Below are positions 24,836 through 40,175 of a stretch of 40,226 bases of DNA, one piece after another. This DNA comes from an uncultured bacterium (lineage in GTDB: Bacteria; Bacteroidota; Bacteroidia; 2-12-FULL-35-15): positions 1-40,226 of the forward strand of contig CAXHCC010000002.1 of the NCBI GenBank assembly GCA_964014945.1, given 5' to 3'. The first letter of the stretch is position 1, and every line of letters starts with the position of its first letter. Position numbers and translations under genes: made by a program. Under the pieces are notes generated by a model, which made no database searches, was not told where the DNA came from, and saw only the letters and a program-made list of their open reading frames with translations.

Positions 24836-24962
24836 TTCAATTAAAACAAACCTTGTGTTAGGATAAATAATTCCTTTTTAGTTGTGACCGAAATCTCTAC
24901 TTTTTCCTGGGAAGTAGTTTCTTGATTTACGGATTTGTTTTGGATTCCAGTTCCAAATAACC
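24811..24962. repeat. Direct repeat copy 2, comprising the authentic narI 3' end plus terminator
   Basis: See copy 1. Confidence 0.95.
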
Positions 24963-25627: not shown

Positions 25628-25658
25628 AATATTTTGTTTTAATTAATTATTTAATTTT

Positions 25659-26393
25659 TTATTTCGCCGCAGCCATCGACTGCTCTTTAATTTCATTTGG
25701 TGTAGGTATTGGTGTTGCACAATCCCCGCAATCCGATGCATTATCTCTAGCATTCAAAAATGTTCTTTGCTGGGCTGTTACCACATCTACTTTTTTCTTA
25801 AAATCAATGTGTTTAAAGTCTTCTTTTAACACCATAAACAACATACTCAAGGCATTTTTATAAATGTTACCATTCTTAATGCCCTTCATTATTATTACTT
25901 TTTGCTTTTTGTTCAGCACATTTTCTCTGATTCGCGTTTTGCGCTCATCAAATTCTGACAACATTTTCTCAATAGCCGGTAACATTATCATGGATACCAT
26001 TTCATCTAAAAACTGCTGGTCTTTATGAATGGCTATTAAGCGCAAAATATTTGGCAGGTTATCCGCAAGCTCTATTCCACAATCAATACCAGCCTTACGC
26101 TGTTCTTCTTTCATGTTTACTAAAAACTCACCTCTTTTATAATCTTCGCCAAATATTACATAGCCCAAATCCAAAAAGCAAATGGCTTGTATGTGAAAGG
26201 TTTTACCAAAAATTTCTTCAATTTCATCTTTGGTAGAATTAGCCATAAAGTCCGAAAATCGTGTAAACTCTTCTCCTGCTTCAGGATACTTTTCATCCAA
26301 TAGTACTTTTATTTCAGCAATTTTATTTGCCGTTTCAGCACTTGGATATTTAAATATCTCCGCTAACAGATTATAGTGTTCTAAGTTTTTCAT
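25659..26393 (-). CDS. narJ: Nitrate reductase molybdenum-cofactor assembly chaperone (NarJ/TorD-like)
   Basis: It lies between narH and narI. It is an acidic helical protein with the ELADNLPNILR motif, which resembles the NarJ E-L-P-D-x-L-P block. Confidence 0.7.
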   Translation of the reverse strand: MKNLEHYNLLAEIFKYPSAETANKIAEIKVLLDEKYPEAGEEFTRFSDFMANSTKDEIEEIFGKTFHIQAICFLDLGYVIFGEDYKRGEFLVNMKEEQRKAGIDCGIELADNLPNILRLIAIHKDQQFLDEMVSMIMLPAIEKMLSEFDERKTRIRENVLNKKQKVIIMKGIKNGNIYKNALSMLFMVLKEDFKHIDFKKKVDVVTAQQRTFLNARDNASDCGDCATPIPTPNEIKEQSMAAAK

Positions 26394-26471
26394 TTTTTAT
26401 TTTTTATCTCCCCTGCTGAACTTTTACGCCCATAAGGAGGGTGGTTGATAAACTATTTCTTTCTTCTTTAA

Positions 26472-27968
26472 TTACAAGCCACGTTCAGGTTTAGCTTTAA
26501 ATCCAAATCCTGTACTGCCTTTAAAGTCGCCTGTATTCTCCAACATTTCTATCGACTCTTCTCTATGCGCTGCTGGTACAACAAAACGTTCTTCGTAAGT
26601 TACCAGAGAAGTTAATCTATAGATAGCGTTTGCTTCATGCTCATCCATATTGGCTTCTCCCATACAAGTTGTTAGTTGTTGTTCAGAAACATCGCCTACA
26701 GTTGTATTTCTTCTAGAAACCCTAACAGCATGTAACTTTTTAAATACATCAACAATTTTTTCTTCATTTCCTGCAGAGAACAATGATGCTAAGTAGCTAA
26801 TTGGCACTCTCAGTTTTTCTATACCTACTAACAGTGTTTCATTCACTGAATCGTAGTTTCCGTCTTCGCCAATAGAAGCCATAGCTGGCAACAATGGTGG
26901 AACGTAGAATAAGTTAGGAACTGTTCTAAACTCAGGGTGTAATGGCAATGCAATACCCCACTCTTTTACAAATTTGTAAACAGGAGATAATTGTGCTGCT
27001 TTGATAGTTGAGTCAGCAATACCATTTTCTTTTGCCGCAGCTATTACTTCAGGATCGTTCGGATCTAAGTAAATACCTAATTGCGCATCTACTAAATCTG
27101 ATTCGTTTTTCGTTGCTGCTACTTGCTCAATTTTATCCGCATCGTACAACATAACTCCCATATATCTAATACGACCAACACAAGAGTGGAAACAAGCTGG
27201 TGGTTGTGCCGACTCTAAACGAGGGTAACACAATACACATTTTTCAGATTTTCCAGTATTCCAGTTGTAGTACGATTTTTTGTAAGGACATGCTGTAACA
27301 CACATTCTCCACGCTCTACATCTTTCTTGGTTCAATAGTACTACACCATCTTCACCTCTTTTGTATAAAGCACCTGAAGGACAAGATCCAACACAAGCAG
27401 GGTTTAAACAGTGGTTACAAATTCTTGGTAAGTAATGAAAGGTCATTCTTTCCAATTGGAACATGGCATCTTGCTCTGCTGCACTTACGTTTTTAAAGTT
27501 TACATCGTTACGTGCATAATCAGGCGTTCCAGATAAATCATCATCCCAGTTAGGCCCTGCTTTAATTTCCATTGGCTCACCAGTAATCATAGAAACGGCT
27601 CTACCAATTGGCTGATCATCACCTTCCGGCGCATCAAACAAATCTTGGTATTTGTATTGCCATGGCTCGTAATAATCATCCAATACAGGCATGTTAGGAT
27701 TGGCAAAGATGTTCTTTAACCCTTTTAACTTACCCGCTCCTTTCAATGAAACGGAGTCGCCATTTCTTTCCCATCCACCTTGGTAGATGTCTTGATCTTC
27801 CCATTTAGTAGGGTAACCTGTTCCTGGTTTTGTTTCTACGTTATTCCACCACATGTAGTCGGCTCCTTTCCTGTCGGTCCATACATTTTTACATGCAATA
27901 GAACAGGTATGGCACCCGATACATTTGTCGAGGTGAAAAACCATTGATATTTGCGATCTTATATTCAT
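26472..27968 (-). CDS. narH: Respiratory nitrate reductase beta subunit (Fe-S)
   Basis: KCIGCHTCSIACKNVW and further Cys clusters (CNHCLNPACVGSCPSGA, RCRAWRMCVTACPYKK, KCVLCYPR), and the WWNNVETKPG block typical of NarH. Confidence 0.95.
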   Translation of the reverse strand: MNIRSQISMVFHLDKCIGCHTCSIACKNVWTDRKGADYMWWNNVETKPGTGYPTKWEDQDIYQGGWERNGDSVSLKGAGKLKGLKNIFANPNMPVLDDYYEPWQYKYQDLFDAPEGDDQPIGRAVSMITGEPMEIKAGPNWDDDLSGTPDYARNDVNFKNVSAAEQDAMFQLERMTFHYLPRICNHCLNPACVGSCPSGALYKRGEDGVVLLNQERCRAWRMCVTACPYKKSYYNWNTGKSEKCVLCYPRLESAQPPACFHSCVGRIRYMGVMLYDADKIEQVAATKNESDLVDAQLGIYLDPNDPEVIAAAKENGIADSTIKAAQLSPVYKFVKEWGIALPLHPEFRTVPNLFYVPPLLPAMASIGEDGNYDSVNETLLVGIEKLRVPISYLASLFSAGNEEKIVDVFKKLHAVRVSRRNTTVGDVSEQQLTTCMGEANMDEHEANAIYRLTSLVTYEERFVVPAAHREESIEMLENTGDFKGSTGFGFKAKPERGL

Positions 27969-28002
27969 AATGCTAGGTATTATAGTTCGATTTTAGTATT
28001 TA

Positions 28003-31000
28003 TTAGTATTCTACTTTTTCCATTTTACGAACCAACACGTGCGTATCTCTGTTTACACCAACTGGTCCCCAATAGTTAAAGTGGTATGTAAATTGTCCGT
28101 AACCACCACACATCAAGTTTGGTTTTAAGTGTACCCTTGTAAAGGAGTTGTTCATACCACCTCTTCTTGGTTCACCTTTTCTACCTCTTCTTTCTTGTGA
28201 TTTTGCAATGTTATATGTTCTTTCCACTGCGTGGTACACTATACATGCTCCTTTCGGAATACGTGCACTAACACAAGCTCTGGTTACATAAGTACCGTGG
28301 TCATTATATACCTCAACATGGTCGTTATCTTTAATGCCTAGCTCAGCAGCATCTGCCTCACTTAACCAGCATGGTTCACCACCTCTTGATAGCGTTAACA
28401 TACGTAAGGTATCACCATAAGTAGAGTGGATATGCCACTTACCGTGTGGTGTTAAGCAGTTCAACATTTTTGCTTTACCATCATTTACTGTTACCCTTAA
28501 ATCGCCATAGGCTTCAGGGGTTGGTGATGGTTTGTAAGTTGATAAATGCTCACCAAAAGCAATGTAGGCATCATGATCTAAGTAGAAATGTTGTCTACCT
28601 GTTAATGTTCTCCATGGCACTAAGTAGTCTATATTATACGTATAGGCTGCATAAGTTCTACCTTCATGCATAAGTCCTGACCATAATGGAGATGAATTAT
28701 AACGTTTAGGTTGCGCTTGCAAATCACGATAGTTCATTTCTATTTGCTCATAGCCATCACCTAATCGTGCTACTTCTTCTACACCAATTTTCTTGGCCAT
28801 ATTTTCGTATGTACGTTTGGTAAGTTTACCATTGGTTAGTGTAGAAAGTTTAAGTACCGCATTAATCGCTTCGGTATCATCTTTCAACGAAGGATATTCA
28901 GTACCATCTGTTAGTTTAGAGATATGTCCTCTATCTTCTAACATTTCTTCATACACATCCTCACATTTGTAACTGTTACCGTGAGCACCCAATCCGTTTT
29001 TAGCTACACCAGTACCAAGTGAAATAAACTTGTCGTAAATTTTGGTGTAATCCCTATCAACAAACTTGATGTAGTGCATTGTTTTACCAGGCACTGGCTC
29101 ACATTCTCCTTTACTCCAGTCTTGCAAATTAGTTTGACTAATTTCATCAGCTGAATCGTGAACAAGCGGAGTATTTACTACATCCTTCATAACATGTGGT
29201 AAATACGTTTTACTCATTTCGCTCATTTTTTTAGCCAACGATTGGAAAATTTGCCAATCTGATTTTGACTCCCATACTGGAGGAATTGCTTCCGATAATG
29301 GGTGAATGAAAGAGTGCATATCTGTTGAGTTGATATCTGCTTTTTCATACCAAGAAGCTGTTGGTAATACGATATCAGAATAAAGCGCTGATGTATCCAT
29401 TCTAAAGTTTACATCTACTACTAAATCCATTTTACCTCTTGCCGCTTCTTTTTTGTAAGTGATATCTTCTACAACATCGCCTGCAACTTCATTCGCAATT
29501 TTATTACTATGCGTTCCTAAGTAATGGTCTAAGAAATACTCATGTCCTTTTGCAGAAGTTCCAATGGCATTTCCTTTCCAAATAAACCATACTCTTGGGA
29601 AGTTTATTTCTTCATCCGGCTCTACAACCGCATGCTTTAATGAGCCATCTTTTAATTGACTCACGATGTGATCACGCATGGCTTCGTCAGTTGTATGACC
29701 TGCTGCTTGCGCATCTTTTACAATTTCAAAGTTGCTTTTGTTGTATTGCGGATAGTATGGCATCCAACCGTTTCTAACAGCTTTCACTGCCCAGTCAGCT
29801 GTATGCATATTCGCTAGTTTATTATCTGGCGAAGAGTTGTAGAATTTTTGGTTACCATCATAACGCCACTGACTAGAGTTGATATAGTGCCAAATTGGAC
29901 CTTGTTGTAATCTTGGAATAGTACCCCAGTCTTTTGAACTCATTATGGTAGCCCATGAATCCATAGGTGCTAATTTTTCTTGACCCACATAGTGGTTCAT
30001 ACCACCACCATTTTTACCGTTACAACCTGTTAGCATTTGTGCCATAATAGCTGAACGATACATTAAGTTATTATGGAACCAGTGGTTAATAGCAGCACCA
30101 ACAATTACCATACATTTACCTTCTGTTTTCTCTGCTGTATCACTCCACTCTCTCGCTAATTGTATAACTGTTTCTTTACCAATACCGGTAAATATTTCTT
30201 GCCAAGCAGGTGTATAAGCTTGCTCTTTATCATTGTATGAACTTGGGTAATCGCCATCTAATCCACGACCAACACCATACTGTGCCATGGTTATATCATA
30301 GATAGTTGCAACCGCTACTTTGTTACCGTTCACATCGGTTATGTGTTTAACTGGCACACCTCTGTTCGCTTTTTTATCTAAACCAAACTCGGTAAACTGC
30401 ACTTGTAACACCTCATCGTTGTTATCTAACAAGGTTAATACCGGATCGTATTCTTTATCGGTTTCACCGTCCTCATATTTCAAGTTCCAGTTACCTTGTT
30501 TTTCATCCCAACGATGTCCCATACTTCCTTTTGGCATCGCGAAATCGCCCGATTTTTCATCCAAGCATAAGAACTTCCAATCGCCATTGCTTACATCTTT
30601 GTATTTAGCAATCTCATTAGCCCTTATCATTTTACCTGGTTGAAGTGCTCCGTCTTTTTCTTCAATTTTCACAAGGAACGGACAATCCGTATAGCGTTTT
30701 GTATAATCTATAAAGTAAGGTACTTGTCTTTTGTGGTGATATTCTTCTAATATCACATGTGTAACTGACATCCAAAAGGCACCATCAGAACCAGCGTGTA
30801 ATGGAATCCATTGATCGGCATGTTTTGTTACCATACTAAAGTCAGGCGACATTACAACCGTTTTGGTACCATTGTGTCTTGACTCCGAGAAGAAGTGAAT
30901 ATCTGGCGTTCTTGTCATACCCAAGTTAGCACCCATAGATACACAGAACTTAGAATGATACCAGTCTGCACTTTCACAAACATCTGTTTGCTCACCCCAA

Positions 31001-31644
31001 ATTTCTGGGAAGGCATTTGGTAAATCACAATACCAATCGTAGAAACTAAGGTTAATACCACCCATTAACTGAATGTATCGTGCACCAGATGCATAACTTA
31101 ACATACTTTTTGCTGGAATTGGCGCAAAGCCTGTAATCCTATCCGAACCGTATTTTTGAATGGTGTGGATATTTGCAGCGGTAATTAACTCAACTACCTC
31201 GTCCCAGTGCGCTCTTCTAAAACCACCTTTACCTCTTGCTCTTTGGTAGCGTTGTCTTTTCTTAGGATCGTTTTGCAAGTTAGCCCACGCTTTTACTGGA
31301 TCGCCACCAGCAGTTTGTTTTTCTGCTTTAAACAAATCCATTAATGCGCCACGCATCAACGGGTATTTTACCCTAATTGGGCTGTACAAATACCATGAGT
31401 AAGAAATACCTCTTTGACAACCACGTGGCTCATAAGGAGGAACCTCTTTATTGAATTGTGGGTAATCAACTTGTTGCATTTCCCATACAACAATACCATC
31501 TTTTACATGTATTGCCCAAGAGCAACCACCAGTACAGTTTACACCGTGGGTACTTCTTACAACTTTATCGTATTGCCATCTGTTACGATAAAACTCTTCC
31601 CATTTTCTGGTTTTCGGTGAAATTATATCTTCAATCCAACTCAT
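28003..31644 (-). CDS. narG: Respiratory nitrate reductase alpha subunit (Mo-bisMGD), cytoplasmic type
   Basis: 1213 aa with the N-terminal FS0 ligands [11 protein letters not shown]. There is no twin-arginine signal. narH follows directly. Confidence 0.95.
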
Positions 31645-31698
31645 ATTGTTTAGTTTTAAAATTATTAGTCCGTTTATTATGAACGTGCCAGCTTACGC

Positions 31699-32535
31699 TT
31701 AGCGCGCGTATATATCATCTTTTACACTTCCTTTTTTTCTTTTATTGAATAGCAAGAAAATTATAATTGCAATTACCACAAACGCTGCAAAACCACCGGC
31801 CACAATACTTTTGCTATCTTCTTCTCCCTGTGCAGGAGCGTCTACAGCGTTGGCAAAGAAGGCCGTTAATTGGGTAATCTCTTCGTCTGTTAATGGATCA
31901 TCTTTATAAGAAGATGTCATTGCTGGAAATGGAGGAGCAGTTAATATACCTCTGATTCCTGCTTCACCCATTCGCTCATACACTTTTGTTAAATCCTTCG
32001 CTAAAGCTCCACCAGTCATTACGCCTTTTTGATCAACATTATGACATGTTAAGCAAGAAGGCCCCCCTTCAGCAAACCTTGTTGCTCCAACAAACAAGTC
32101 ACGACCCGCAGCAATAACTTCTTCTGATGCATTGGCCGGATCCAATGCTGGATCTCTTGGTTCTTCAACCACTTCTTCTGCTGCTTCATCTCCACCGCCA
32201 CTATTTGCAGCTATATAATCTATGATAGTAGCAATATCTCCATCAGAAACAGATTGAGGTGGCATTGGATAACCATACTCTTGAATAATTGCTTTTGCAT
32301 CCGCATCTTTTTGTCCAAACGCTTCCGCATTTTTCACAAAGCTTGTTATCCACTCTGCTGATCTTTTAGTGTTAACTCCTGCTAAATCAGGTCCAACTAA
32401 TTTTCCTTTTCCTACAGTATGGCAGGCACCACAATTTTGTTTAAATATTGCTTGGCCATCTTGCGCCGTTAAGCCTAAACTGCAAATGAATGCGCCGGCT
32501 GTTAAAGCTATTCGTTTTAGGTTGGTGACTTTCAC
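31699..32535 (-). CDS. Membrane-anchored di-haem c-type cytochrome (NarC-like), first gene of the reductase operon
   Basis: Signal peptide, two CxxCH motifs (CGACH, CLTCH) and a C-terminal TM helix (FAAFVVIAIIIFLLF). It has a GTG start and ends 54 nt upstream of narG. Confidence 0.8.
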   Translation of the reverse strand: MKVTNLKRIALTAGAFICSLGLTAQDGQAIFKQNCGACHTVGKGKLVGPDLAGVNTKRSAEWITSFVKNAEAFGQKDADAKAIIQEYGYPMPPQSVSDGDIATIIDYIAANSGGGDEAAEEVVEEPRDPALDPANASEEVIAAGRDLFVGATRFAEGGPSCLTCHNVDQKGVMTGGALAKDLTKVYERMGEAGIRGILTAPPFPAMTSSYKDDPLTDEEITQLTAFFANAVDAPAQGEEDSKSIVAGGFAAFVVIAIIIFLLFNKRKKGSVKDDIYAR

Positions 32536-32629
32536 GTTTCTTAGTATTTAATTAATATCTGTTGTTATTTAATTTCAGTACAAAACAGAGACCGGTGGCT
32601 TTTTCTCTTTAACAAAAGTCAATCAAACC

Positions 32630-32648
32630 AACATGTTTTTATATGATG
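32630..32648 (-). promoter_or_regulatory. Shared nar-cluster upstream motif, copy A (AACATGTTTTTATATGATG on the plus strand)
   Basis: Near-identical to 40206-40225 (one 1-nt indel) and 15/18 identical to 38444-38461. It lies 95-113 nt upstream of the cytochrome c start. Confidence 0.5.
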
Positions 32649-32801
32649 TACAACATAAAACGATATGATTTATCTCATATACAAAAATGACGGGTCCATT
32701 TTTGTATGTATCTAGCTCTATTTCTGCTAGTTATAAATTACGCCGCCTGTTGAATCAGGCCAAGAAAGGCGGTAATTTATATTGCTTCTAAATTGCGCTT
32801 G

Positions 32802-34646
32802 TTAAAACGTAATCTTAGCAAAAGTAGTGCGCGATGAAGCTTCGCGCGCTTGTCCAAGGGTATGAATTCCTTTTGCTTTTAGTATAGGTATTAGTTTCAA
32901 AAATATTTCTGCCGTAACAATGGCATCGCCCAGAGCTGTGTGCCTGCCCACCAACTCTATACCCAACCTACTAGCAATGTCTTCCAAATTATGTAGCTCT
33001 TGTTTTGGATGACATACGGCCGACAACAACAAGGTATCTAATACAGGGTTGGTAAATTTAACACCAGACTGTTCTTCTTTTAGTTGAATAAAGCGCATAT
33101 CAAAAGCGGCATTGTGTGCCACTAAAACAGAGCGATCTACATATTCGCTAAAATGCGGTAACACTTTATCAATGGTTAATTTATCCGTTAACATTTCAGG
33201 ATGTATTTCGTGAATTTGGATAGACTTTAAAGAGATACTTCTTTTAGGGTTTACTAACTCATCAAACATCTCTTCATGGTTGATTTTATTATTATAAACC
33301 CTAACACCTGCAATGGAAATTATTTCATGTCCGCTTGAAGGATCCAAGCCGGTTGTTTCTGTATCGAATACAACATATGAAAGTTCTTCTAGTGGAATAT
33401 CATCCAATTCGTTATGCTGAACACTCTGGTCAAAGTTTTCAGAACTGTAATGTACAGGGCGTGATTCAACATGATCGCTAACAATGTTTTCGCTAACCTG
33501 TTTATAAGCGTTTAAGGAAACCGTTAAGCTTCGGTCGTTATCATCAATTACCGTTATCTTATCTTCAAACTTACTTATACTTGATCTAAAAGGAAATGGG
33601 TCTCCATCCCATTTTAAAGCAAGCGTATAATTCTCCACTATATTCACATTCAACTCCTTCATCTTTCTTAATCTACCCCGCTCTAACACTTCCAATAATA
33701 AGTCAACAAATTGCCGCTCTTGAATATTCACCCATACGCCATTTTCTGGAGTTATATTAAAACGATTATTGGTTTTCATATTGGCGATGGATGTAAGCTC
33801 ATCCAACAAAATAAAACAATCGTTGTAAGCAATTGATTGCTGTGCCAGCTCTTCAGTAACATCTTTAAACGTAAATATATAACCCGATATAATGGTTTCG
33901 TTTGCTTTAACCGTAGGCGAAATACTAACTCTGATAAACTGTTTTTTATACCGTGTTGTAATAAAATGAAAAGTAGTTTCGGCATCTTCCTTATCAACAT
34001 TATCATGAATACGCTCAAAGATATAAGCAATGGGTGCCTTGTTAAATATGCTAAATATGGAGCGGCCTACACCTAAGCGTGCAAACCTTCCTACCTCTTC
34101 ATGTTCAACTGAATTTATTATTTCATAGGCGCTTTTATTAGCCATGGCAATTCGTGCATCTTGGTCACAAATTATCACACCTTTATCAGCCATGTTCATA
34201 AAGGTTGCCAATCTAATTTTATCTTCTTCAAACCCTTCTTTCGATTCGGTAACAATTTCTTTTACATCCGACTTTAAGGATATATAGGAGTCGGCCAAAT
34301 CATTAATTACAGTGGTAAGCTTATTGGTTTCTAAAGCACCAACAGGTTTAATTCTATACTTGGCATTGGCTAAAGTAATGAGTCTTGTTTCTTCCGTTAA
34401 CACCTCAATAGGTGAAATATAGTTTCTGAAAATGTATAGGATAAATTGCGAACTAATGAAAAACAATACCACCATTGCTAAGGTGCCGTATATAACCACT
34501 CTACCAAAAACAGCTCTACCAAATTCCCGCTCCTCTTCCGTCATATCAGTCCACATAAGTAATATGGCCAAATTAACCACTACAATAGCCCCTATTGCGG
34601 TAATAATAAAAAACAGCCAATGCTTTTGTCGGGTTGTCATTTTCAT
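32802..34646 (-). CDS. Membrane-anchored sensor protein: 2 TM, HAMP, PAS-like, then a C-terminal DnaQ-like DEDDh 3'-5' exonuclease
   Basis: Two N-terminal hydrophobic helices, a HAMP-like segment (ISPIEVLTEETRLI...NDLADSY) and a PAS-like segment ending GYIFTFKDVTEE. Exonuclease motifs are Exo I VVFDTETTGLD, Exo II LVAHNAAFDMRF and Exo III HTALGDAIVTAE. Confidence 0.8.
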   Translation of the reverse strand: MKMTTRQKHWLFFIITAIGAIVVVNLAILLMWTDMTEEEREFGRAVFGRVVIYGTLAMVVLFFISSQFILYIFRNYISPIEVLTEETRLITLANAKYRIKPVGALETNKLTTVINDLADSYISLKSDVKEIVTESKEGFEEDKIRLATFMNMADKGVIICDQDARIAMANKSAYEIINSVEHEEVGRFARLGVGRSIFSIFNKAPIAYIFERIHDNVDKEDAETTFHFITTRYKKQFIRVSISPTVKANETIISGYIFTFKDVTEELAQQSIAYNDCFILLDELTSIANMKTNNRFNITPENGVWVNIQERQFVDLLLEVLERGRLRKMKELNVNIVENYTLALKWDGDPFPFRSSISKFEDKITVIDDNDRSLTVSLNAYKQVSENIVSDHVESRPVHYSSENFDQSVQHNELDDIPLEELSYVVFDTETTGLDPSSGHEIISIAGVRVYNNKINHEEMFDELVNPKRSISLKSIQIHEIHPEMLTDKLTIDKVLPHFSEYVDRSVLVAHNAAFDMRFIQLKEEQSGVKFTNPVLDTLLLSAVCHPKQELHNLEDIASRLGIELVGRHTALGDAIVTAEIFLKLIPILKAKGIHTLGQAREASSRTTFAKITF

Positions 34647-34665
34647 AATTAACTCCTTTTTAATT

Positions 34666-36162
34666 TTATCTCATCGACCATGGTACGGGTAATTCCGTTA
34701 CCGTACTAAATACATAATCTTGTAAACGATAAATCGTTTTTAACGACTCTTTTAATTTTCTAAGTTCAATAGCACTTAACTCTTCTGTATCAACCATATG
34801 GTTGCTTGTTTCAGGTTGCGTTTCAAACGTAAACTCCAATTTAAAACGTAGTTTAAGAATAAAGTCGAATGCCACATGCACATTGTTGGCCAACACTTTT
34901 GACATGTTTCCACTTTCTAAAATTCCTTGTAAACGTTTAAGTGTACTTGTTTCTTTTATACCACTATGCAAGGCCAATAATCTAATAGCAGCATCTAAAG
35001 GTGCTGTGGCTTCTCTTCTAATATCAAACTCATCAGGCTTAACACCAAAGGCAACAAATTTCCAAGCCCATTTTTTAATTGGTGGCCTACTTGCTTGCAA
35101 AATGTTTTCAGCAAAATAGCGCAAAAAGAATTTATGCGTTTCCATACGCTCAAATAAATACGCCCACAATTCATCACTCAATTCACGCTTACCGTAAATA
35201 CATCTAAAGTCAAAATAGATAGACGCATCTAATAACTCTTTTGAGTCAGCCTTTTTAATAATAGTTTCAAAGGTCTCTTTCCAAATATCAATAGAATTGC
35301 ACAACTCCGGGTTGGTTGCCATGATGTTTCCTTTGCACAAGGGAAAACCACATTCGTGCAAGCCACTCACCACAATCTCTGCATATTCTAAAAACCACTC
35401 TTTAACAGCATCGTAATTTTCAGCTGGAACATTTTCAAAAATAATTCCATTGTCCTGATCGGTTCTAATGGTCTGCGCTTTTCTGCCTTCACTTCCCATA
35501 CCAATCCACGCAAAATTTACGGGTGGTGCGCCCTTACCTCTGCGATCCATTTCAGCTAAAGCAATTTCTTGCACCCTTTTACCAATGGCATCGTTTACTA
35601 CCGTAATAATGTTGGTTAAGGATACTGCGTTCTCCTCTTTTTCAAAATTATCCCAAATAACTTTTTTACTTTCTTTTCGGTAATAAGCAATTTGTGCAAC
35701 ACTTTCAGCACTCCTAATTTTCTTAATTATTTGGTTGGGGTAATTCACTTGTACCGATAGCCAATCTTGTTGACTCAATACCCCTATGGATTCTTTGCCG
35801 TCCATTACCAACAACAGTTTAATGTTATGCTTAAGCATATACATTAGCGCATCAAATACGGGGTGCTCTTTTTGAACGGTAATTAGGTTGGGATCCATAA
35901 TAGATACCACCTCTTCATTACCTTTTTCAGAATTGGATAGTTTTTTTATGTCTGCTCCTGAAAAATGTTTTTTTGTAACAATACCAATAGGAATGTCTTC
36001 TCTTAATACAATTAAGAAATTGATTAAGGGGTTAACCAATAAACGAGAAGCTCTCGACAAGGTACAAAAGGAATCAACTGTTTTAATTTCGTTATGCGCT
36101 AAATCGCCAACTACCCCAGTAAAGGCCAGCAAAGTACTTTGGTATGTCGACTTTAGTTCCAT
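34666..36162 (-). CDS. CBS-pair protein with DUF294-type putative nucleotidyltransferase and DUF294_C domains
   Basis: GMGSEGRKAQTIRTDQDNGIIF matches the GS-x-GR...DQDN Pol-beta-like NTase motif of DUF294. A CBS-like tandem lies upstream and a helical substrate-binding-like C-terminal region follows (FDFRCIYG). Confidence 0.75.
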   Translation of the reverse strand: MELKSTYQSTLLAFTGVVGDLAHNEIKTVDSFCTLSRASRLLVNPLINFLIVLREDIPIGIVTKKHFSGADIKKLSNSEKGNEEVVSIMDPNLITVQKEHPVFDALMYMLKHNIKLLLVMDGKESIGVLSQQDWLSVQVNYPNQIIKKIRSAESVAQIAYYRKESKKVIWDNFEKEENAVSLTNIITVVNDAIGKRVQEIALAEMDRRGKGAPPVNFAWIGMGSEGRKAQTIRTDQDNGIIFENVPAENYDAVKEWFLEYAEIVVSGLHECGFPLCKGNIMATNPELCNSIDIWKETFETIIKKADSKELLDASIYFDFRCIYGKRELSDELWAYLFERMETHKFFLRYFAENILQASRPPIKKWAWKFVAFGVKPDEFDIRREATAPLDAAIRLLALHSGIKETSTLKRLQGILESGNMSKVLANNVHVAFDFILKLRFKLEFTFETQPETSNHMVDTEELSAIELRKLKESLKTIYRLQDYVFSTVTELPVPWSMR

Positions 36163-36645
36163 TTAGTTTAGTTGCGCTTTTTTGTTTTGTTCTTCTATCA
36201 TATTGGCAACTTGCTTAATGTCTGGCTTTGCTCGCAACAACTCACCAATAACGTATTCTGATTCTTCTTGTATTTTTTTTACCAGAAAATAAATGATAAT
36301 TACATCCACCACGATGATCGTGTAAATTAACATTTCATAATTTTCAAGTGTATACAAATACACAATCCATGCAAGTGGACCAGCCATTAGCACTAGCAGC
36401 AAACCCATGTATTTATTAAATGTGGAAAATAAACGTTTTAGGGCAGGCAGTTTTTTTGCATTTTCTGATATGGATTTATTCTTGGCAAATTGTATAAATG
36501 CAATTAGTTGCTTATACCATTTTTCATAATAGGTTTTAAACTGCCCCATTGCTTCCCTTTTAGGTTTACCATCACTTATCTTACCAACCTCCTCTGGATA
36601 ACGGTTAAGAGCTGCTATTAATTCCTCTATATCTTTTTGTTCCAT
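36163..36645 (-). CDS. Hypothetical 2-TM membrane protein, first gene of the cassette
   Basis: 160-aa ORF with two adjacent hydrophobic helices (MGLLLVLMAGPLAWIVYLY, LIYTIIVVDVIIIYFLV). Its stop abuts the next start (TAAATG). Confidence 0.55.
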   Translation of the reverse strand: MEQKDIEELIAALNRYPEEVGKISDGKPKREAMGQFKTYYEKWYKQLIAFIQFAKNKSISENAKKLPALKRLFSTFNKYMGLLLVLMAGPLAWIVYLYTLENYEMLIYTIIVVDVIIIYFLVKKIQEESEYVIGELLRAKPDIKQVANMIEEQNKKAQLN

Positions 36646-36694: not shown

Positions 36695-36727
36695 CAAAAA
36701 AGAGGGCTATGAAAATCATAGCCCTCT
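36695..36727 (-). terminator. Rho-independent terminator after narK
   Basis: Perfect 12-bp stem AGAGGGCTATGA/TCATAGCCCTCT at 36701-36727, followed on the minus strand by TTTTT. It begins about 25 nt after the narK stop. Confidence 0.75.
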
Positions 36728-36751: not shown

Positions 36752-38380
36752 TTATGGATTTTTAAACTCTGCCTTAGGTCCTAAATAATACCACCAGTTA
36801 AGTACCGCACATAATGCATAAAACACTGCAAACCCATAAAGTGCATATTCTGGAGTTGTTGCTTTCATTTGCTCACCAATAACTTTTGGAATTAAGAAAG
36901 CACCATAAGCAGCAACTGCAGAAGTCCAACCTAATACCGGCCCCCGCTGCTCTTCATTAAATACACCTGTTATAGTTTTAAATGTAGAACCATTACCAAT
37001 ACCTGTTGCTGCAAATAGTATTACTATAAGAACAAAGAATTTGATAAAATAATCCTGTGGTGTTTCTGATTGGTAAGCTAGCTGCATGTAGTATCCAACA
37101 CCAAGCGATGCCAATACCATTACAATAGCCACCCATTGAGTTACAATAGCACCACCTACTTTATCAGCAATAGCACCACCTACAGGTCTAATTAAAGCAC
37201 CCACAAAGGCACCAACCCACACCCACATAAAGGTAACTGGCCCATCAGGGTTAGCCATTGAGTGTGTCATAACCCCATCTACTTCTACGTGCGATACACC
37301 AAAAATAAACTTGATAGATAAACCTACAGCGTTGGCAAACCCAATAAATGAACCAAAAGTCATTACATAAATAATGGTCATTACCCAGGTGTGTTTGTTG
37401 TCAAATATTTTATACTGCCGTTGTAAGTTTGCTTTAATTTCTCCAGGAGAAAGTATTTTCATTAAGAACACACATAAAGCAATTACCGATGGAAGCACTA
37501 CCCATTTTACCCACGTTTCTTGTTTAAATGTAATGATGAAATACAAACCAATTGCTGCAGAAACGAATCCAATGATTAATAACCAGGTCATTCGCCCAAA
37601 AGAAACTAAAGGGTTGCCAATTTTTGGTGAAACAGCTTCCGTACGAATGTTATTCATACCAAACCAGCCAGCAAAGGCCAAAGGTATTAACCACAACATC
37701 CACACCCAACCAGCGTTTGAGAGCCAAGTGTCAGAACCAGCAGCCACCCGTTTAAAAATGGTACCACTTGCACTGGTTAACTCCATTGCATCACCACTTA
37801 ACGCTCCTAACATTGGAAAGGTCATACAAAGCGGTATTAATATTTGCATGGTGGTAACACCAAAATTACCCAAACCAGCATTTAAGCCTAAAGCCAAACC
37901 TTGTTGTTTTTTTGGATAAAAGAAAGAGATGTTACTCATGGAAGAGGCAAAGTTACCACCACCAAAACCAGATAAAAATGCCATTACCATAAAGAAGCCA
38001 AACGGTGTATTAGGATCTTGCAAACCAATGGCTGCACCCGTTGCTGGAATCATTAATAAGGCCGTTGTAAAGAAAATAGTATTTCTACCACCTGCTAAAC
38101 GAATAAAAAAGGTACTTGGAATACGCTGCGTTGCACCAGTAAAACCAGCAATAGCAGGCAGCATAAACAATAATGCCTTTGCTTCTTCAGGCGATTTACC
38201 AAAGGTAAATCCTAAATTTTTCATTTGCACGGTAATAATACCCCACATTAACCATACGGCGAAACCTACCAAAAGGCTAGGGATTGAGATCCACAAGTTT
38301 CGAGAAGCGATTTTTTTTCCTTCCGACTCCCAAAACTGTTCGTCTTCCGGGTTCCACTCCATTAAATCTTTGTTCGACAT
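36752..38380 (-). CDS. narK: MFS nitrate/nitrite transporter, E. coli NarK type
   Basis: WNPEDEQFWESEGKKIASRNLWISIPSLLVGFAVW closely parallels the E. coli NarK N-terminus. It also has GGNFASSMSNISFFYPK and GLNAGLGNFG NNP signatures. I prefer the ATG at 38380 to the upstream ORF extension. Confidence 0.9.
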   Translation of the reverse strand: MSNKDLMEWNPEDEQFWESEGKKIASRNLWISIPSLLVGFAVWLMWGIITVQMKNLGFTFGKSPEEAKALLFMLPAIAGFTGATQRIPSTFFIRLAGGRNTIFFTTALLMIPATGAAIGLQDPNTPFGFFMVMAFLSGFGGGNFASSMSNISFFYPKKQQGLALGLNAGLGNFGVTTMQILIPLCMTFPMLGALSGDAMELTSASGTIFKRVAAGSDTWLSNAGWVWMLWLIPLAFAGWFGMNNIRTEAVSPKIGNPLVSFGRMTWLLIIGFVSAAIGLYFIITFKQETWVKWVVLPSVIALCVFLMKILSPGEIKANLQRQYKIFDNKHTWVMTIIYVMTFGSFIGFANAVGLSIKFIFGVSHVEVDGVMTHSMANPDGPVTFMWVWVGAFVGALIRPVGGAIADKVGGAIVTQWVAIVMVLASLGVGYYMQLAYQSETPQDYFIKFFVLIVILFAATGIGNGSTFKTITGVFNEEQRGPVLGWTSAVAAYGAFLIPKVIGEQMKATTPEYALYGFAVFYALCAVLNWWYYLGPKAEFKNP

Positions 38381-38443
38381 TTTTTGTGTTTTTAAGTTAG
38401 TACGCGTGATTGTTAGTTTACTGAGGTAAATGTAGTACAGCAA

Positions 38444-38510: not shown

Positions 38511-38551
38511 TCCTTAAAAAAGGAAAGGGAGCATTAAATATTAATGCTCCC
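38511..38551 (-). terminator. Rho-independent, possibly bidirectional, terminator after the NNP transporter gene
   Basis: 11-bp stem GGGAGCATTAA/TTAATGCTCCC at 38527-38551, flanked by an A-run on one side and a T-run on the other. Confidence 0.7.
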
Positions 38552-38612
38552 TTTTAATACTTGCAATTCATGAAACTTTTCTGGAATCAAGAAGTGCTCA
38601 TTTCGAATGTTC

Positions 38613-40175
38613 TTATTCGTCGCTAAAAGAATCTTTTGGTTCTTCCAACATTAATGCACAGAATAAGAAACTTATACCTGCGCCTGCCGCCACCACATAA
38701 AAGAAGGTTTTAGCATCTACGAAAGAGTATATTGTTAAGTAGGTTACCGCACCTACGTTACCGTATGCGCCAGCCATACCTGCAATTTTTCCTTGAATTT
38801 TGTGGTTGATAAGTGGTACAAAAGCAAAGGTAGCACCCTCAGCTCCTTGCACAAACATAGAGCAAGCCATGGTTATGATAACAGAAACTACCAACCACCA
38901 TACACCACTAAACTGCGGTAATAATGTTTGTACACCTTCTACTATTGGACCATACTTTGGTATAATAGCCATGCAAAAGAAACCTACAGTAATACCTAAC
39001 ATATAAATAAGCATGGTTCTTTTTCTACTCGACATGTGATCGGATAAATAACCACCCAAAGGACGAGCAACCAGGTTAATAAATGCAAATGAACCTGCTA
39101 CCAAACCTGCCATCGTTACCGTCATAATTTTTTCTCCTTCAGCATTACGCAATGGCTCAAATACGGTTAAGAAAAACCATGGTAACATTGATACAACCGC
39201 TAACTCTGCACCAAAATTGGCGAAGTAGGTACTGTTTAAGGCTGCCACACTACTCCAAGGATACTTTTCCTCTTCCGGCACTCCTTTTTTAAGTGCTGGT
39301 AAGTTTTCTTTTAAAATACCATATACCGTGTATAAATACCACAAGCCAAGTACTACATAAATAGCGTTAACAATGGTAGCCGACAACATTGGTTTTCCAT
39401 CAACATCCATCCCACCTAATTTCCATGTTAAAATACCAAGGGCACCGTACAATGGAAACGACCAAACGATGTATTGAATTAAATCTTTATAGCTCGAAAC
39501 CGGCATAGCGCCCATTTTTTTTGCCGCAACAAAGTGGTAATCTTTAGTGGCGCCTTCTTTTGGCAAATCACGTGCTGCAAAGTAATAGAATACGCCATAA
39601 ACCGCACACAAAATTGAGCTAGATGCTAAAGACCATCTCCAACCATCATCACCTCCAAAAACGGTAAAAGCAATAACTGGTATTAAACCTGCTGCAGCTG
39701 CAGAACCAAAGTTACCCCAGCCTGCATAAAAACCTTCTGCTTTACCAATGTGTTTTGGCGGAAACCACTGACCCGTCATTCTAATACCAATAACAAAACC
39801 GGCACCAATAACACTTAAGAACAATCTAGACACTACTAGCTGTATAAACGTGTCACCAAATGCAAAAAACAATCCTGGAATGGCCATTAACACCATTAAA
39901 ATACCAAACACTCTTCTTGGTCCAAACTTATCTACCATAGAACCAATAATTACCCTACCTGGTATGGTTAGTGCCACGTTACAAATTAGTAAGGTTTTAA
40001 TGTGCTTTTTTGTAAGAAAATCTAAATCCTCCAAAATGGTACTGGCCAGTGGAGCAAAGTTAAACCACACAAAAAACGTTAAAAAGAATGCAATCCACGT
40101 TAAGTGAAGAATTCTTATTTCTTCTTTAGAAAAATCAAACAATCTGAATTTTCCATCATCAATTGTTGTTGCCAT
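38613..40175 (-). CDS. MFS nitrate/nitrite porter (NNP) family transporter, NarK1/NrtP-like
   Basis: 12-TM MFS protein of 520 aa with the NNP signature YAGWGNFGSAAAG and a GAGFVIGIRMTGQWFPPK block. Confidence 0.8.
   Translation of the reverse strand: MATTIDDGKFRLFDFSKEEIRILHLTWIAFFLTFFVWFNFAPLASTILEDLDFLTKKHIKTLLICNVALTIPGRVIIGSMVDKFGPRRVFGILMVLMAIPGLFFAFGDTFIQLVVSRLFLSVIGAGFVIGIRMTGQWFPPKHIGKAEGFYAGWGNFGSAAAAGLIPVIAFTVFGGDDGWRWSLASSSILCAVYGVFYYFAARDLPKEGATKDYHFVAAKKMGAMPVSSYKDLIQYIVWSFPLYGALGILTWKLGGMDVDGKPMLSATIVNAIYVVLGLWYLYTVYGILKENLPALKKGVPEEEKYPWSSVAALNSTYFANFGAELAVVSMLPWFFLTVFEPLRNAEGEKIMTVTMAGLVAGSFAFINLVARPLGGYLSDHMSSRKRTMLIYMLGITVGFFCMAIIPKYGPIVEGVQTLLPQFSGVWWLVVSVIITMACSMFVQGAEGATFAFVPLINHKIQGKIAGMAGAYGNVGAVTYLTIYSFVDAKTFFYVVAAGAGISFLFCALMLEEPKDSFSDE

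What the first reader, a model, noticed from the sequence alone, without database searches (positions are those of the whole stretch)
32802..36645. Uncharacterised three-gene cassette (2-TM protein / CBS-DUF294 nucleotidyltransferase / membrane HAMP-PAS DEDD exonuclease) wedged into a nitrate-respiration cluster
Seen in the sequence: three tightly packed minus-strand genes lie between the two nitrate transporters and the narC-like/narGHJI reductase operon. The first pair abut at TAAATG and the second pair are 19 nt apart. Strong terminator hairpins follow each transporter gene (36701-36727 and 38527-38551), so the cassette appears to be its own transcription unit. The middle gene carries an intact Pol-beta-type NTase motif (GSEGR...DQDN) behind a CBS pair. 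The last gene carries all DEDDh exonuclease catalytic motifs behind a membrane/HAMP/PAS input.

Established knowledge, from memory and to be verified: DUF294 NTase plus DnaQ-like exonuclease gene pairs recur in bacteria, for example beside acetate permease genes in gamma-proteobacteria, and have no assigned function.

Inference: this is a writer/eraser pair. The NTase would add or polymerise nucleotides and the exonuclease would remove them. It would be gated by ligand-sensing CBS and PAS domains and placed to couple nitrate or nitrite transport, or energy state, to the reductase. It could be a new nucleotide-based signalling or protein-nucleotidylylation switch.
Basis: partly seen in the sequence, partly recalled or inferred. 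Interest (0 to 1): 0.85.

Follow-up and report, generated by a model that had tools for sequence, protein, structure and literature searches.

The report
Nitrate-transporter-linked nucleotidyltransferase/exonuclease regulatory gene pair
Two neighbouring genes, a sensor-equipped enzyme that attaches nucleotides and a membrane-anchored sensor enzyme that clips them off, form a widespread bacterial pair of unknown function; here the pair sits beside nitrate transporters instead of its usual acetate-uptake genes, which gives a second, independent clue that it regulates small-anion transport.

Summary
Three minus-strand ORFs lie at the stated coordinates, the domain calls hold, and both upstream terminators are present.

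The region is not one three-gene cassette. The 160-aa two-TM protein travels with one variant of the second NarK transporter, and it also occurs where the enzyme pair is absent.

The core is a two-gene module: a CBS-DUF294 nucleotidyltransferase and a DEDDh exonuclease carrying a TM/HAMP-like/PAS input. In 80 species-level genomes, DUF294 had a DEDDh exonuclease within 6 kb in 70. In 66 of the 80 it sat among acetate genes (ActP-like symporter, Acs, malate synthase, CrbS-like kinase).

The window belongs to a single clade of DUF294 found next to NarK in about ten loci. These include organisms at 32-40% and 65% GC, sometimes with no reductase nearby. The pair therefore tracks the transporter, not narGHJI.

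The predicted NTase fold is closest to the protein AMPylators GlnE and DrrA. The exonuclease is closest to PolC/DnaQ proofreaders. A 2026 preprint still calls the Pseudomonas orthologues (PP_0354/PP_0353) functionally unclear.

A writer/eraser switch is plausible but unproven, and no DEDDh protein de-nucleotidylylase is known. I rate it a new variant of a known, uncharacterised kind.

The parts
38613..40175 (-). NarK-family MFS transporter A (520 aa)
   Evidence: MFS_1 2.8e-34. TIGR00886 NarK family 270.7 bits, below the 311.7 cut-off. It is 62-87% identical to the transporter next to the pair or in the nar cluster in L002, L004-L006, L084, L085, L089, L090, L094 and L095.
38524..38554 (-). 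Terminator-like hairpin after transporter A
   Evidence: 14-bp stem followed by a T-run.
36752..38443 (-). NarK/NarU-like MFS transporter B (563-aa ORF; called as 542 aa on the source contig)
   Evidence: NF011608 NarU 4.1e-83 and TIGR00886 235 bits, both below cut-off. Two variants exist in relatives, about 80-91% and about 48-50% identical to the window copy.
36701..36727 (-). Conserved hairpin / intrinsic terminator between transporter B and the downstream genes
   Evidence: 12-bp stem with a T-run. The same hairpin, with compensatory stem changes, occurs in L084, L002, L004, L005 and L085.
36163..36645 (-). Small 2-TM protein (160 aa). It is an accessory of the NarK-B variant, not an obligate part of the enzyme pair.
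   Evidence: No Pfam or NCBIfam family. TM segments at residues 82-100 and 104-122. Only 13 representatives among 1.84 billion proteins. Present in L084, L094 and L085/L086 (L085/L086 lack the pair) and absent from L002, L004, L005, L006 and L095.
34666..36162 (-). CBS-pair / DUF294 nucleotidyltransferase / DUF294_C protein (498 aa)
   Evidence: PF03445 6.9e-40, PF10335 1.3e-26, CBS 6.7e-12. AF2 mean pLDDT 88.4. Foldseek top non-CBS hits are GlnE (1v4a, 3k7d) and DrrA (6yx5_B).
35743..36114 (-). CBS pair (Bateman module), about residues 17-140
   Evidence: The profile aligns to full CBS pairs in the PDB, e.g. 2ef7 and 2yzi.
35446..35496 (-). NTase catalytic motif G223-S-E-G-R...T-D235-Q-D237-N-G239
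   Evidence: Invariant in 92 homologues. Pattern of GlnD/GlnE type.
34711..35127 (-). DUF294_C helical domain (residues 346-484)
   Evidence: PF10335 1.3e-26. It is in the same Pfam clan as the GlnD/GlnE C-terminal helical domains (PMC3710099).
32802..34646 (-). Membrane-anchored sensor-DEDDh exonuclease (614 aa)
   Evidence: PF00929 1.9e-35. AF2 mean pLDDT 81.7. Homologues of 614-800 aa conserve the N-terminal sensor across phyla.
34455..34616 (-). Two TM helices (residues 11-29 and 46-64) joined by a short loop of about 17 aa
   Evidence: Hydropathy and AF2 helices 5-34 and 37-92.
34191..34454 (-). HAMP-like helix-connector-helix and signalling helix (residues 65-152)
   Evidence: AF2 topology. 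Foldseek aligns the N-terminal part to the WalK and VicK kinases. No PF00672 hit.
33840..34181 (-). PAS domain (residues 156-269) with invariant Cys160
   Evidence: PAS_9 1.1e-5, 26.1 bits against a cut-off of 27. AF2 shows a beta-sheet/helix PAS topology. C160 is invariant in 83 homologues.
33501..33815 (-). Unassigned alpha/beta domain (residues 278-382)
   Evidence: AF2 secondary structure, pLDDT about 80-86. No Pfam hit.
32814..33377 (-). DEDDh 3'-5' exonuclease domain (residues 424-611)
   Evidence: Sequence search: PDB 2p1j PolC exonuclease, 5e-31. Foldseek: DnaQ epsilon with target TM-score about 0.86 and rmsd about 2 A. D428, E430, D516, H569 and D574 are invariant.
32536..32801 (-). 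266-nt intergenic region before the cytochrome c / narG genes
   Evidence: Sequence read. No strong terminator, no Rfam family, no FNR-box match.
24878..32535 (-). Cytochrome c gene, then narG, narH, an ORF at the narJ position, and narI
   Evidence: Pfam hits. NarG domains are listed on the source contig.

Best explanation
SHOWN.
The region holds two separable things.
1. A small 2-TM accessory protein that goes with one variant of the second NarK transporter.
2. The NarK-linked clade of a very widespread, tightly coupled two-gene module. One partner is a CBS-DUF294 nucleotidyltransferase with a GlnE/DrrA-like fold and intact catalytic residues. The other is a DEDDh 3'-5' exonuclease with intact catalytic residues. 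In this clade the exonuclease is anchored in the membrane and preceded by a histidine-kinase-like TM/HAMP-like/PAS input.
In most other bacteria the same module sits in the acetate-uptake and acetate-activation regulon (ActP-like symporter, Acs, malate synthase, CrbS/R). Here it has been recruited to nitrate/nitrite transporters. The common denominator is a secondary transporter for a small anion, not the reductase.

INFERRED MECHANISM (about 0.3-0.4 likely).
- Both enzymes are output domains of signalling proteins.
- The NTase is gated by adenine-nucleotide or energy status through its CBS pair. It transfers one or a few nucleotides onto a hydroxyl of a target, most likely a protein at or near the membrane such as the transporter or an associated regulator.
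- The exonuclease is gated by its PAS/transmembrane input. It hydrolyses the phosphodiester and releases 5'-NMP. This is the bond chemistry DEDDh enzymes already perform on 3' ends.
- The balance of the two activities tunes nitrate/nitrite transport after translation. Expression is uncoupled from the narK genes by the conserved terminator.
For: Anatomy and catalytic residues.

Pairing.
- An exonuclease lies within 6 kb of DUF294 in 70 of 80 species-level genome loci.
- Of the 68 loci (genome loci plus L002) with a same-strand pair, 41 overlap or abut and 20 lie within 30 nt.

Context.
- SSF in 31 loci, Acs in 17, GlcB in 30, CrbS-like kinase in 17; any of these in 66 of 80.
- NarK plus the pair occurs in the window (L001), L002/L003, L004, L005, L006, L084, L089, L090, L094 and L095.
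- All eight NarK-linked DUF294 sequences included in the NJ tree fall in one clade, sister to acetate-context sequences.
- L089 and L090 are 65% GC, against 32-40% GC for the flavobacterial loci.
- L002 and L090 have no reductase genes in their flanks.

Sensor modules move between the two partners.
- cNMP-CBS-DUF294 goes with a short exonuclease.
- CBS-DUF294 goes with a long TM/PAS exonuclease.
- Cache-TM-PAS-CBS-DUF294 occurs with no exonuclease.

Fold.
- NTase: GlnE 1v4a E 3.8e-7, GlnE 3k7d and DrrA 6yx5_B.
- DUF294_C is in the GlnD/GlnE helical-domain clan.
- Weak hhalign matches fall at the correct GlnD and GlnE regions (P about 0.01), against none for Cca or PcnB.
- Exonuclease: PolC/DnaQ-like, on a WalK/VicK-like N-terminal scaffold.

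Literature and terminator.
- The terminator after NarK-B is conserved.
Against: - No substrate, product or target is known for any DUF294 protein or its partner exonuclease.
- No DEDDh enzyme is known to remove nucleotides from a protein. The known erasers use other folds or chemistry: the second NTase domain of GlnE, the HD domain of GlnD, and SidD (my own knowledge).
- The exonuclease domain is about 40% identical to a PolC proofreading domain and about 60% identical between phyla. This argues for a canonical nucleic-acid 3' end as substrate.
- No DUF294-exonuclease fusion protein appeared among the roughly 240 listed homologues.
- The long exonuclease can occur alone, as in Malonomonas L087. 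DUF294 occurs without an exonuclease in 10 of 80 loci.
- Deleting the Pseudomonas orthologues gives only mild phenotypes.
- The 80-genome sample is dominated by Pseudomonas.
Confidence: 0.4

Rival explanations
1. A nucleotide second-messenger or short-oligonucleotide signalling pair. The sensor-gated NTase synthesises a diffusible linear or cyclic nucleotide. The sensor-gated exonuclease degrades it. Effectors such as CBS-bearing or transporter proteins read it out.
For: Both enzymes sit behind classical signalling inputs (cNMP-binding, CBS, REC, Cache, PAS, TM/HAMP-like). That arrangement is typical of messenger-turnover enzymes.

From my own knowledge, the exonuclease layout (2 TM, PAS, an unassigned domain, then a nuclease) parallels the c-di-AMP phosphodiesterase GdpP, and the DEDDh enzyme Orn degrades dinucleotides.

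Either partner can occur alone. This is easier to explain with a diffusible product than with a shared bound target.
Against: The top structural neighbours are protein AMPylators. No cyclase or CD-NTase appears among the listed Foldseek hits. PADLOC has no CD-NTase-like hit for the NTase. The exonuclease is closest to DNA proofreaders, not Orn or RNase T. No receptor candidate is conserved across the loci.
Confidence: 0.2
2. An RNA 3'-end tailing and trimming pair. The NTase adds untemplated nucleotides to a specific mRNA, sRNA or tRNA. The exonuclease trims them, setting the stability or translation of transporter-related transcripts.
For: From my own knowledge, Pol-beta NTase plus DEDD exonuclease is the established logic of GLD-2/PARN, TRAMP/Rrp6 and CCA-adding enzyme/RNase T. 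The preprint authors note RNase T-like similarity for PP_0353. The exonuclease has a fully canonical nucleic-acid active site.
Against: The NTase profile shows no similarity to E. coli Cca or PcnB (hhalign P 0.46 and 0.23), against weak but correctly placed matches to GlnD and GlnE. Foldseek top hits are GlnE and DrrA. Membrane anchoring of the exonuclease is unusual for RNA-end processing. No conserved RNA element was found: there are no Rfam hits in the window.
Confidence: 0.15
3. A DNA repair or proofreading function that protects against nitrosative damage during nitrate respiration. A DnaQ-like exonuclease would work with a nucleotide-adding enzyme.
For: The exonuclease domain is most similar to the exonucleases of PolC, DnaQ, DinG and ExoX. 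Hemerythrin/ScdA-like genes, which I associate with nitrosative stress (my own knowledge), recur nearby in L084, L089 and L095.
Against: The same module is overwhelmingly linked to acetate genes, where nitrosative damage is not an issue. The exonuclease is membrane-anchored with signalling inputs. The NTase is GlnE-like, not polymerase-like.
Confidence: 0.05
4. A mobile or anti-phage defence insertion (a CBASS-like NTase plus nuclease effector) that landed by chance in the nar cluster.
For: GC is slightly lower across 33-37 kb (0.35-0.375) than in the flanks (about 0.39-0.40). The exonuclease matches generic DEDDh defence-associated models in PADLOC.
Against: The NTase and the small protein have no PADLOC hit. 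The same gene order next to NarK is conserved in about ten loci at 42-71% identity and across very different GC contents. No integrase or repeat boundaries lie next to the pair in the window. The orthologous pair is a direct target of a metabolic two-component system.
Confidence: 0.03

Closest known systems
PP_0354/PP_0353 of Pseudomonas alloputida (P. putida KT2440), the cNMP-CBS-DUF294 / DnaQ-like pair of the CrbS/R (MxtR/ErdR) acetate regulon
   Same: Same two enzyme families (PF03445+PF10335 NTase with CBS; PF00929 DEDDh exonuclease). The genes are adjacent, on the same strand and usually overlapping. They are linked to a secondary anion transporter. The function is unknown.
   Different: - The window NTase lacks the cNMP-binding domain: 498 aa against about 645 aa.
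- The window exonuclease is a different DEDDh lineage. Pseudomonas-type exonucleases score about 55 bits against the window domain, while long exonucleases score about 230 bits.
- The window exonuclease carries about 410 extra residues of TM/HAMP-like/PAS input.
- The context is NarK and nitrate respiration, not ActP/Acs/GlcB.
GlnE (glutamine synthetase adenylyltransferase), GlnD (PII uridylyltransferase) and DrrA/SidM, which are protein nucleotidyltransferases
   Same: Best non-CBS structural matches of the NTase model. Catalytic pattern G-x-G-R...D-x-D. The C-terminal helical domain belongs to the same Pfam clan. From my own knowledge, these enzymes run reversible modification cycles that respond to metabolic state.
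   Different: Only 12-15% identity in the structural alignments. hhalign support is weak (P about 0.01). The target is unknown. In those systems removal uses a second NTase domain, an HD domain or SidD, never a DEDDh exonuclease (my own knowledge).
DnaQ (Pol III epsilon) and PolC-type proofreading exonuclease domains
   Same: All five DEDDh catalytic residues are present. About 40% identity to T. maritima PolC exonuclease 2p1j. Target TM-score about 0.86 and rmsd about 2 A against epsilon.
   Different: The domain is not attached to a polymerase. It is membrane-anchored, sits behind signalling domains, and is genetically coupled to an NTase and to transporters.
GdpP, the membrane PAS-containing c-di-AMP phosphodiesterase (analogy only, from my own knowledge)
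   Same: The layout is alike: two N-terminal TM helices, a PAS domain, an intermediate domain, then a C-terminal nuclease/phosphodiesterase output.
   Different: The catalytic fold differs (DHH/DHHA1 against DEDDh). No homology was tested or claimed.

Membership tests
DUF294 nucleotidyltransferase (PF03445 + PF10335) | Both Pfam models above their gathering thresholds | tested here: met
   PF03445 scores 136.6 bits (cut-off 21). PF10335 scores 93.6 bits (cut-off 22.5).
DUF294 nucleotidyltransferase (PF03445 + PF10335) | Pol-beta-type catalytic motif G-S-x-G-R ... D-x-D intact | tested here: met
   G223, S224, G226, R227, D235 and D237 are invariant in 92 homologues.
GlnE/GlnD-type protein nucleotidyltransferases | Structural similarity of the NTase plus its helical domain | tested here: met
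   Foldseek: 1v4a E 3.8e-7 (target TM-score 0.59), 3k7d E 9.7e-7, DrrA 6yx5_B E 1e-6 (target TM-score 0.62).
GlnE/GlnD-type protein nucleotidyltransferases | Detectable sequence homology to GlnD or GlnE | tested here: inconclusive
   hhalign P 0.0075 for GlnD residues 47-161 and 0.0098 for GlnE. The aligned regions are correct but the scores are weak. No PDB sequence hit for the NTase part, even with the profile.
GlnE/GlnD-type protein nucleotidyltransferases | Transfers NMP to a protein side chain | not testable with these tools
   Needs biochemistry.
DEDDh (DnaQ-like, PF00929) 3'-5' exonuclease | Pfam model above threshold and all five catalytic residues present | tested here: met
   123.3 bits against a cut-off of 24. 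D428, E430, D516, H569 and D574 are invariant. Target TM-score about 0.86 to epsilon.
Acetate-regulon DUF294/DnaQ pair (PP_0354/PP_0353 type) | NTase and exonuclease genes adjacent on the same strand | tested here: met
   19-nt spacer in the window. 61 of 68 same-strand pairs lie within 30 nt.
Acetate-regulon DUF294/DnaQ pair (PP_0354/PP_0353 type) | N-terminal cNMP-binding domain on the NTase and a short (about 235 aa) exonuclease | tested here: not met
   The window NTase starts directly with the CBS pair. The window exonuclease is 614 aa with a sensor N-terminus.
Acetate-regulon DUF294/DnaQ pair (PP_0354/PP_0353 type) | Neighbourhood of ActP-like SSF, Acs, GlcB or CrbS/R | tested here: not met
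   In the fully annotated nar cluster (24.9-40.2 kb) the neighbours are two NarK-family MFS genes, a cytochrome c gene and narGHI, with no acetate gene. No acetate-gene family turned up among the other ORFs scanned with Pfam; the ORFs at 1-4.9 kb and 7.9-8.4 kb were not scanned.
HAMP domain (PF00672) | HMM match | tested here: not met
   No PF00672 hit at E <= 0.01. A helix-connector-helix after TM2 is seen only in the AF2 model.
PAS domain | HMM match or PAS fold | tested here: inconclusive
   PAS_9 scores 26.1 bits against a cut-off of 27. AF2 shows PAS-like topology at residues 156-269. Homologues carry precomputed PAS hits.
CBASS / CD-NTase defence systems | NTase matches defence-system models | tested here: not met
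   No PADLOC hit for the NTase or the small protein.
NarK nitrate/nitrite transporters (flanking genes) | NCBIfam TIGR00886 at or above its cut-off | tested here: inconclusive
   270.7 and 235 bits against a cut-off of 311.7. Synteny with narGHI supports the assignment.

The most novel reading that the evidence does not exclude
The pair is a new kind of reversible nucleotide-based switch on secondary anion transporters. A GlnE-like NTase, gated by CBS, cNMP or PAS sensors, adds one or several nucleotides to a transporter or transporter-bound protein. A DEDDh 'proofreading-type' exonuclease acts as the first known protein de-nucleotidylylase or chain trimmer of its fold. The same logic would control acetate/pyruvate uptake (ActP) in proteobacteria and nitrate/nitrite exchange (NarK) in this clade.
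Probability: 0.2. Interest if true: 0.85.

Novelty: new variant of a known kind. Interest (0 to 1): 0.55.

Why it matters
The DUF294/DEDDh pair is one of the more widespread conserved bacterial gene pairs that still has no function. In Pseudomonas it is among the genes most strongly dependent on the acetate-switch regulator MxtR/ErdR, yet its role remains unclear.

A single clade of this pair has moved from acetate symporters to nitrate/nitrite transporters. It keeps both catalytic centres and its tight gene coupling, and it occurs in organisms with very different GC content. This gives an independent constraint on function: whatever the pair does relates to a secondary anion transporter or to the energy state of the membrane, not to acetate chemistry or to the nitrate reductase.

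That narrows the experiments to transporter-centred assays and searches for nucleotidylylated proteins. It also offers a second physiological read-out, namely nitrate uptake and nitrite export. If the exonuclease proves to be an eraser of protein nucleotidylylation, or a degrader of a new messenger, that would be a new regulatory chemistry.

Tried and rejected
1. Three-gene cassette. Rejected: the small protein is separable from the pair.
2. Coupling to the reductase. Rejected in favour of coupling to NarK: L002 and L090 lack nar reductase genes in their flanks.
3. Solved structure of a DUF294 NTase. None was found by sequence or by profile; only CBS hits appeared.
4. Defence system. No PADLOC support for the NTase.
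5. Riboswitch or other known RNA in the intergenic regions. No Rfam hit in the window.
6. FNR box (TTGAT-N4-ATCAA). One hit elsewhere in the window, fewer than chance expectation.
7. Rosetta-stone fusion of DUF294 with the exonuclease. None was seen among the roughly 240 listed homologues. The apparent 1407-aa ORF in L032 is an ORF-calling artefact in a high-GC genome.
8. Metagenome scan with the single protein. It returned only one locus, L094.
9. First greedy ORF calling. It lost genes in high-GC loci and was replaced by an unfiltered ORF search.
10. Further literature searches. The search and DOI look-up failed seven times. The literature check therefore rests. Most 'DUF294' text hits were DUF2945, DUF2946 or DUF2947.
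11. Complex prediction (AlphaFold-Multimer). Not possible with the tools available.

Full report
**1. Observation**

The three minus-strand ORFs are present exactly as described: 36163-36645 (160 aa), 34666-36162 (498 aa) and 32802-34646 (614 aa). At the first junction the TAA stop abuts the ATG start. The second junction is a 19-nt spacer containing AGGAG.

Strong terminator-like hairpins follow each upstream MFS gene, at 36727-36701 and 38554-38524. The region holds 17 such sites against 7.3 expected from shuffles.

Upstream lie two NarK-family MFS transporters. Downstream lie a c-type cytochrome, narG, narH, an ORF at the narJ position, and narI. TonB/CarboxypepD_reg receptors, about 37% GC and the nearest homologues (Flavobacteriales, Vicingus) place the window in Bacteroidota.

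**2. Domain content**

- *Middle gene.* It scores well above threshold for DUF294 (PF03445, 6.9e-40), DUF294_C (PF10335, 1.3e-26) and CBS. The GSEGR...TDQDNG motif is invariant in 92 homologues.
- *Last gene.* It has a DEDDh exonuclease domain (PF00929, 1.9e-35). D428, E430, D516, H569 and D574 are invariant in 83 homologues.
- *Its N-terminus.* There are two TM segments.
  - A PAS hit falls just under the Pfam threshold. An AF2 model (pLDDT 81.7) shows a PAS fold at residues 156-269. An unassigned alpha/beta domain follows at 278-382.
  - HAMP was not recovered by HMM. The model shows a helix-connector-helix after TM2, and Foldseek aligns the N-terminal part to the TM-HAMP-PAS kinases WalK and VicK.
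- *Small protein.* It has no family assignment, two TM helices, and only 13 representatives in 1.84 billion proteins.

**3. It is not one cassette**

The small protein is found only where the second NarK gene is the variant at least 80% identical to the window copy. These loci are the window, L084, L094 and L085/L086. It is absent where that transporter is the 48-50% variant, in L002, L004, L005, L006 and L095.

L085/L086 carry NarK-NarK-small protein-hemerythrin-cytochrome c, with narGHJI on L085 and a cut narG on L086, and no NTase or exonuclease at all. The small protein is therefore a NarK-associated accessory. The conserved unit is the two-enzyme pair.

**4. The pair is a very widespread module**

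I annotated the best 80 myself.

| Measure | Count |
|---|---|
| DEDDh exonuclease within 6 kb of DUF294 | 70 of 80 |
| Same-strand pairs that overlap or abut | 41 of 68 |
| Same-strand pairs 1-30 nt apart | 20 of 68 |
| Loci with an ActP-like SSF symporter | 31 |
| Loci with acetyl-CoA synthetase | 17 |
| Loci with malate synthase G | 30 |
| Loci with a CrbS-like SSF-histidine kinase | 17 |
| Loci with any acetate gene | 66 of 80 |

(The 68 same-strand pairs include L002 in addition to the genome loci.)

The sample is biased towards Pseudomonas, which supplies roughly half of the loci.

[quoted passage not shown] Deletion gives only mild phenotypes on propionate and pyruvate, and the function 'remained unclear'. 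An older comparative study noted a DUF294-dnaQ operon next to a nitrogen-metabolism gene in Bacilli.

**5. Architectures covary**

- cNMP-CBS-DUF294 (about 645 aa) goes with a short exonuclease (about 235 aa).
- CBS-DUF294 (about 485-500 aa) goes with a long sensor-exonuclease (614-800 aa).
- Rhodocyclales carry long exonuclease + short DUF294 + cNMP-CBS-DUF294, and at least one locus (L072) adds a short exonuclease.
- Some Bacteroidota and Ignavibacteriota have Cache-TM-PAS-CBS-DUF294 next to SSF and no exonuclease.

The short exonucleases are a different DEDDh lineage: about 55 bits against the window domain, compared with about 230 bits for long exonucleases. The long sensor-exonuclease is strongly conserved across phyla. 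Its exonuclease domain keeps 57-61% identity, and there are invariant N-terminal positions such as R98 and C160. It can also occur alone, as in Malonomonas.

**6. The window belongs to a NarK-linked clade**

NarK genes flank the pair in the window (L001), L002/L003, L004, L005, L006, L084, L094, L095, L089 and L090.

In a neighbour-joining tree of the NTase plus C-terminal region, all eight NarK-linked sequences included form one clade. Its sisters are acetate-context sequences (L091, L008).

L089 and L090 are 65% GC, while the flavobacterial loci are 32-40% GC. L002 and L090 have NarK plus the pair but no nar reductase genes in their flanks. The association is with the transporter, not the reductase.

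A hairpin/terminator after NarK-B is conserved, with compensatory stem changes, in six of seven relatives compared. L085, which lacks the pair, is one of the six. The pair is therefore probably expressed separately from narK or by read-through. No convincing terminator separates the exonuclease gene from the cytochrome c gene.

**7. What the enzymes resemble**

- *NTase.*
  - No solved structure matches the NTase part by sequence or profile.
  - The AF2 model (pLDDT 88.4) finds as best non-CBS neighbours the two halves of GlnE (1v4a, 3k7d) and the Legionella AMPylator DrrA.
  - DUF294_C shares a Pfam clan with the GlnD/GlnE helical domains.
  - hhalign gives weak but correctly placed matches to E. 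coli GlnD and GlnE (P about 0.01), and none to Cca or PcnB.
- *Exonuclease.* The domain is closest to the exonucleases of PolC, DnaQ, DinG and ExoX.
- *Defence.* PADLOC gives no defence assignment for the NTase.

**8. Mechanism**

*Shown.* There are two catalytically intact enzymes, each behind signalling inputs. They are genetically coupled and recurrently placed beside secondary anion transporters.

*Inferred.* The reading I consider most likely (about 0.3-0.4) is an antagonistic nucleotidyl-transfer and hydrolysis cycle on a membrane-proximal protein target. The CBS pair would gate it by energy state, and the exonuclease sensor by a PAS/transmembrane signal. The chemistry is feasible, because a Tyr- or Ser-O-P-5'-nucleoside bond is a phosphodiester like the one DEDDh enzymes cleave. 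No precedent exists.

*Rivals.*
- A diffusible nucleotide messenger pair (0.2), favoured by the signalling-domain logic and a GdpP-like layout.
- RNA 3'-end tailing and trimming (0.15).
- DNA repair (0.05).
- A defence or mobile element (0.03).

**9. Novelty and score**

The pair as such is known but uncharacterised. The literature I could reach does not describe the NarK-linked clade, the covariation of sensor modules between the partners, or the separability of the small protein. The paper-search and DOI look-up service failed in seven later attempts, so this check is incomplete.

I rate it a new variant of a known kind, with interest 0.55. It is not astonishing. It does give a widely conserved orphan gene pair a second, independent physiological context, and it sharpens the experiments.

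Noticed in passing
window 36701-36727; L084 9914-9944; L002 9934-9968; alignment A4: The hairpin after the second NarK gene (GGGYTATGA...TCATARCCC flanked by A- and T-runs) is conserved in six of the seven sequences compared (five relatives plus the window) and shows compensatory stem changes. It looks like a bidirectional intrinsic terminator. It is also present in L085, which lacks the enzyme pair, and absent from L006.
   Followed up: partly
window 36163-36645 and 36752-38443; L084, L085, L094 versus L002, L004, L005, L006, L095: The 160-aa 2-TM protein is present in all four loci whose NarK-B is at least 80% identical to the window copy. It is absent from all five loci with the roughly 48-50% variant. 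This suggests it is a partner of that transporter variant.
   Followed up: partly
window 34647-34665: An AGGAG Shine-Dalgarno-like sequence sits 8 nt upstream of the exonuclease start codon. From my own knowledge, Bacteroidota usually lack such sites.
   Followed up: no
L084 15799-16521; L085 10627-11343; L089 5303-5956; L095 2327-3043 and 11876-12601: Hemerythrin/ScdA-like di-iron protein genes recur next to the NarK cluster and the pair in relatives. From my own knowledge these are linked to nitrosative-stress repair. An Alginate_exp-like putative porin also recurs in L002/L003 and L095 (and a 499-aa ORF with no Pfam hit sits at the same position in L084). Neither is present in the window between narK and narG.
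   Followed up: no
window 15757-18339: A PAS histidine kinase, a stand-alone receiver, and a receiver-cNMP-binding-Crp-type regulator lie together. They are candidate regulators of the nar cluster. Relatives instead carry a plain Crp/Fnr-type regulator directly upstream of narK (L002, L084).
   Followed up: no
window 25659-26393: The 244-aa ORF between narH and narI, at the position of narJ, has no Pfam hit. The same is true of its counterparts in L085 and L095.
   Followed up: no
L027 8522-11437; L050 393-3311; L053 8936-11449; L057 8795-11308; L065 8945-11407: Proteins of 820-970 aa appear to fuse a periplasmic (Cache-like, by inspection) domain, TM segments, PAS and CBS to DUF294. In three of the five loci (L027, L053, L057) they sit next to an SSF symporter, and none has an exonuclease nearby. 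In these lineages the membrane and PAS input sits on the NTase instead of the exonuclease.
   Followed up: partly
L042, L046, L054, L066, L069, L072, L073, L082 (Rhodocyclales and relatives): These are double systems: long sensor-exonuclease + a short 350-aa DUF294 without CBS + cNMP-CBS-DUF294. One (L072) also carries a short exonuclease. In seven of the eight they follow a CrbS-like kinase, and Acs (six) or an SSF symporter (six) is also nearby.
   Followed up: no
window 34167-34169 (Cys160 of the exonuclease) and about 35335-35352 (C271...C276 of the NTase): A Cys in the PAS domain is invariant across 83 long exonucleases. A C-G-F-P-L-C-x-G-N-x-M-A-x-N-P motif in DUF294 is invariant or nearly so. 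These are possible redox or metal/cofactor sites.
   Followed up: no
L087 7001-9154 (Malonomonas rubra): A 717-aa long sensor-exonuclease of the same family occurs alone. No DUF294 gene or transporter lies within 7 kb.
   Followed up: no
Foldseek hits of the CBS pair: Many of the listed structural matches to the CBS pair are 2026 structures of AcuB bound to AMP, ADP, ATP or Ap4A. From my own knowledge, AcuB belongs to the acuABC system that controls acetyl-CoA synthetase acetylation in Bacillus. This may be only generic CBS similarity.
   Followed up: no
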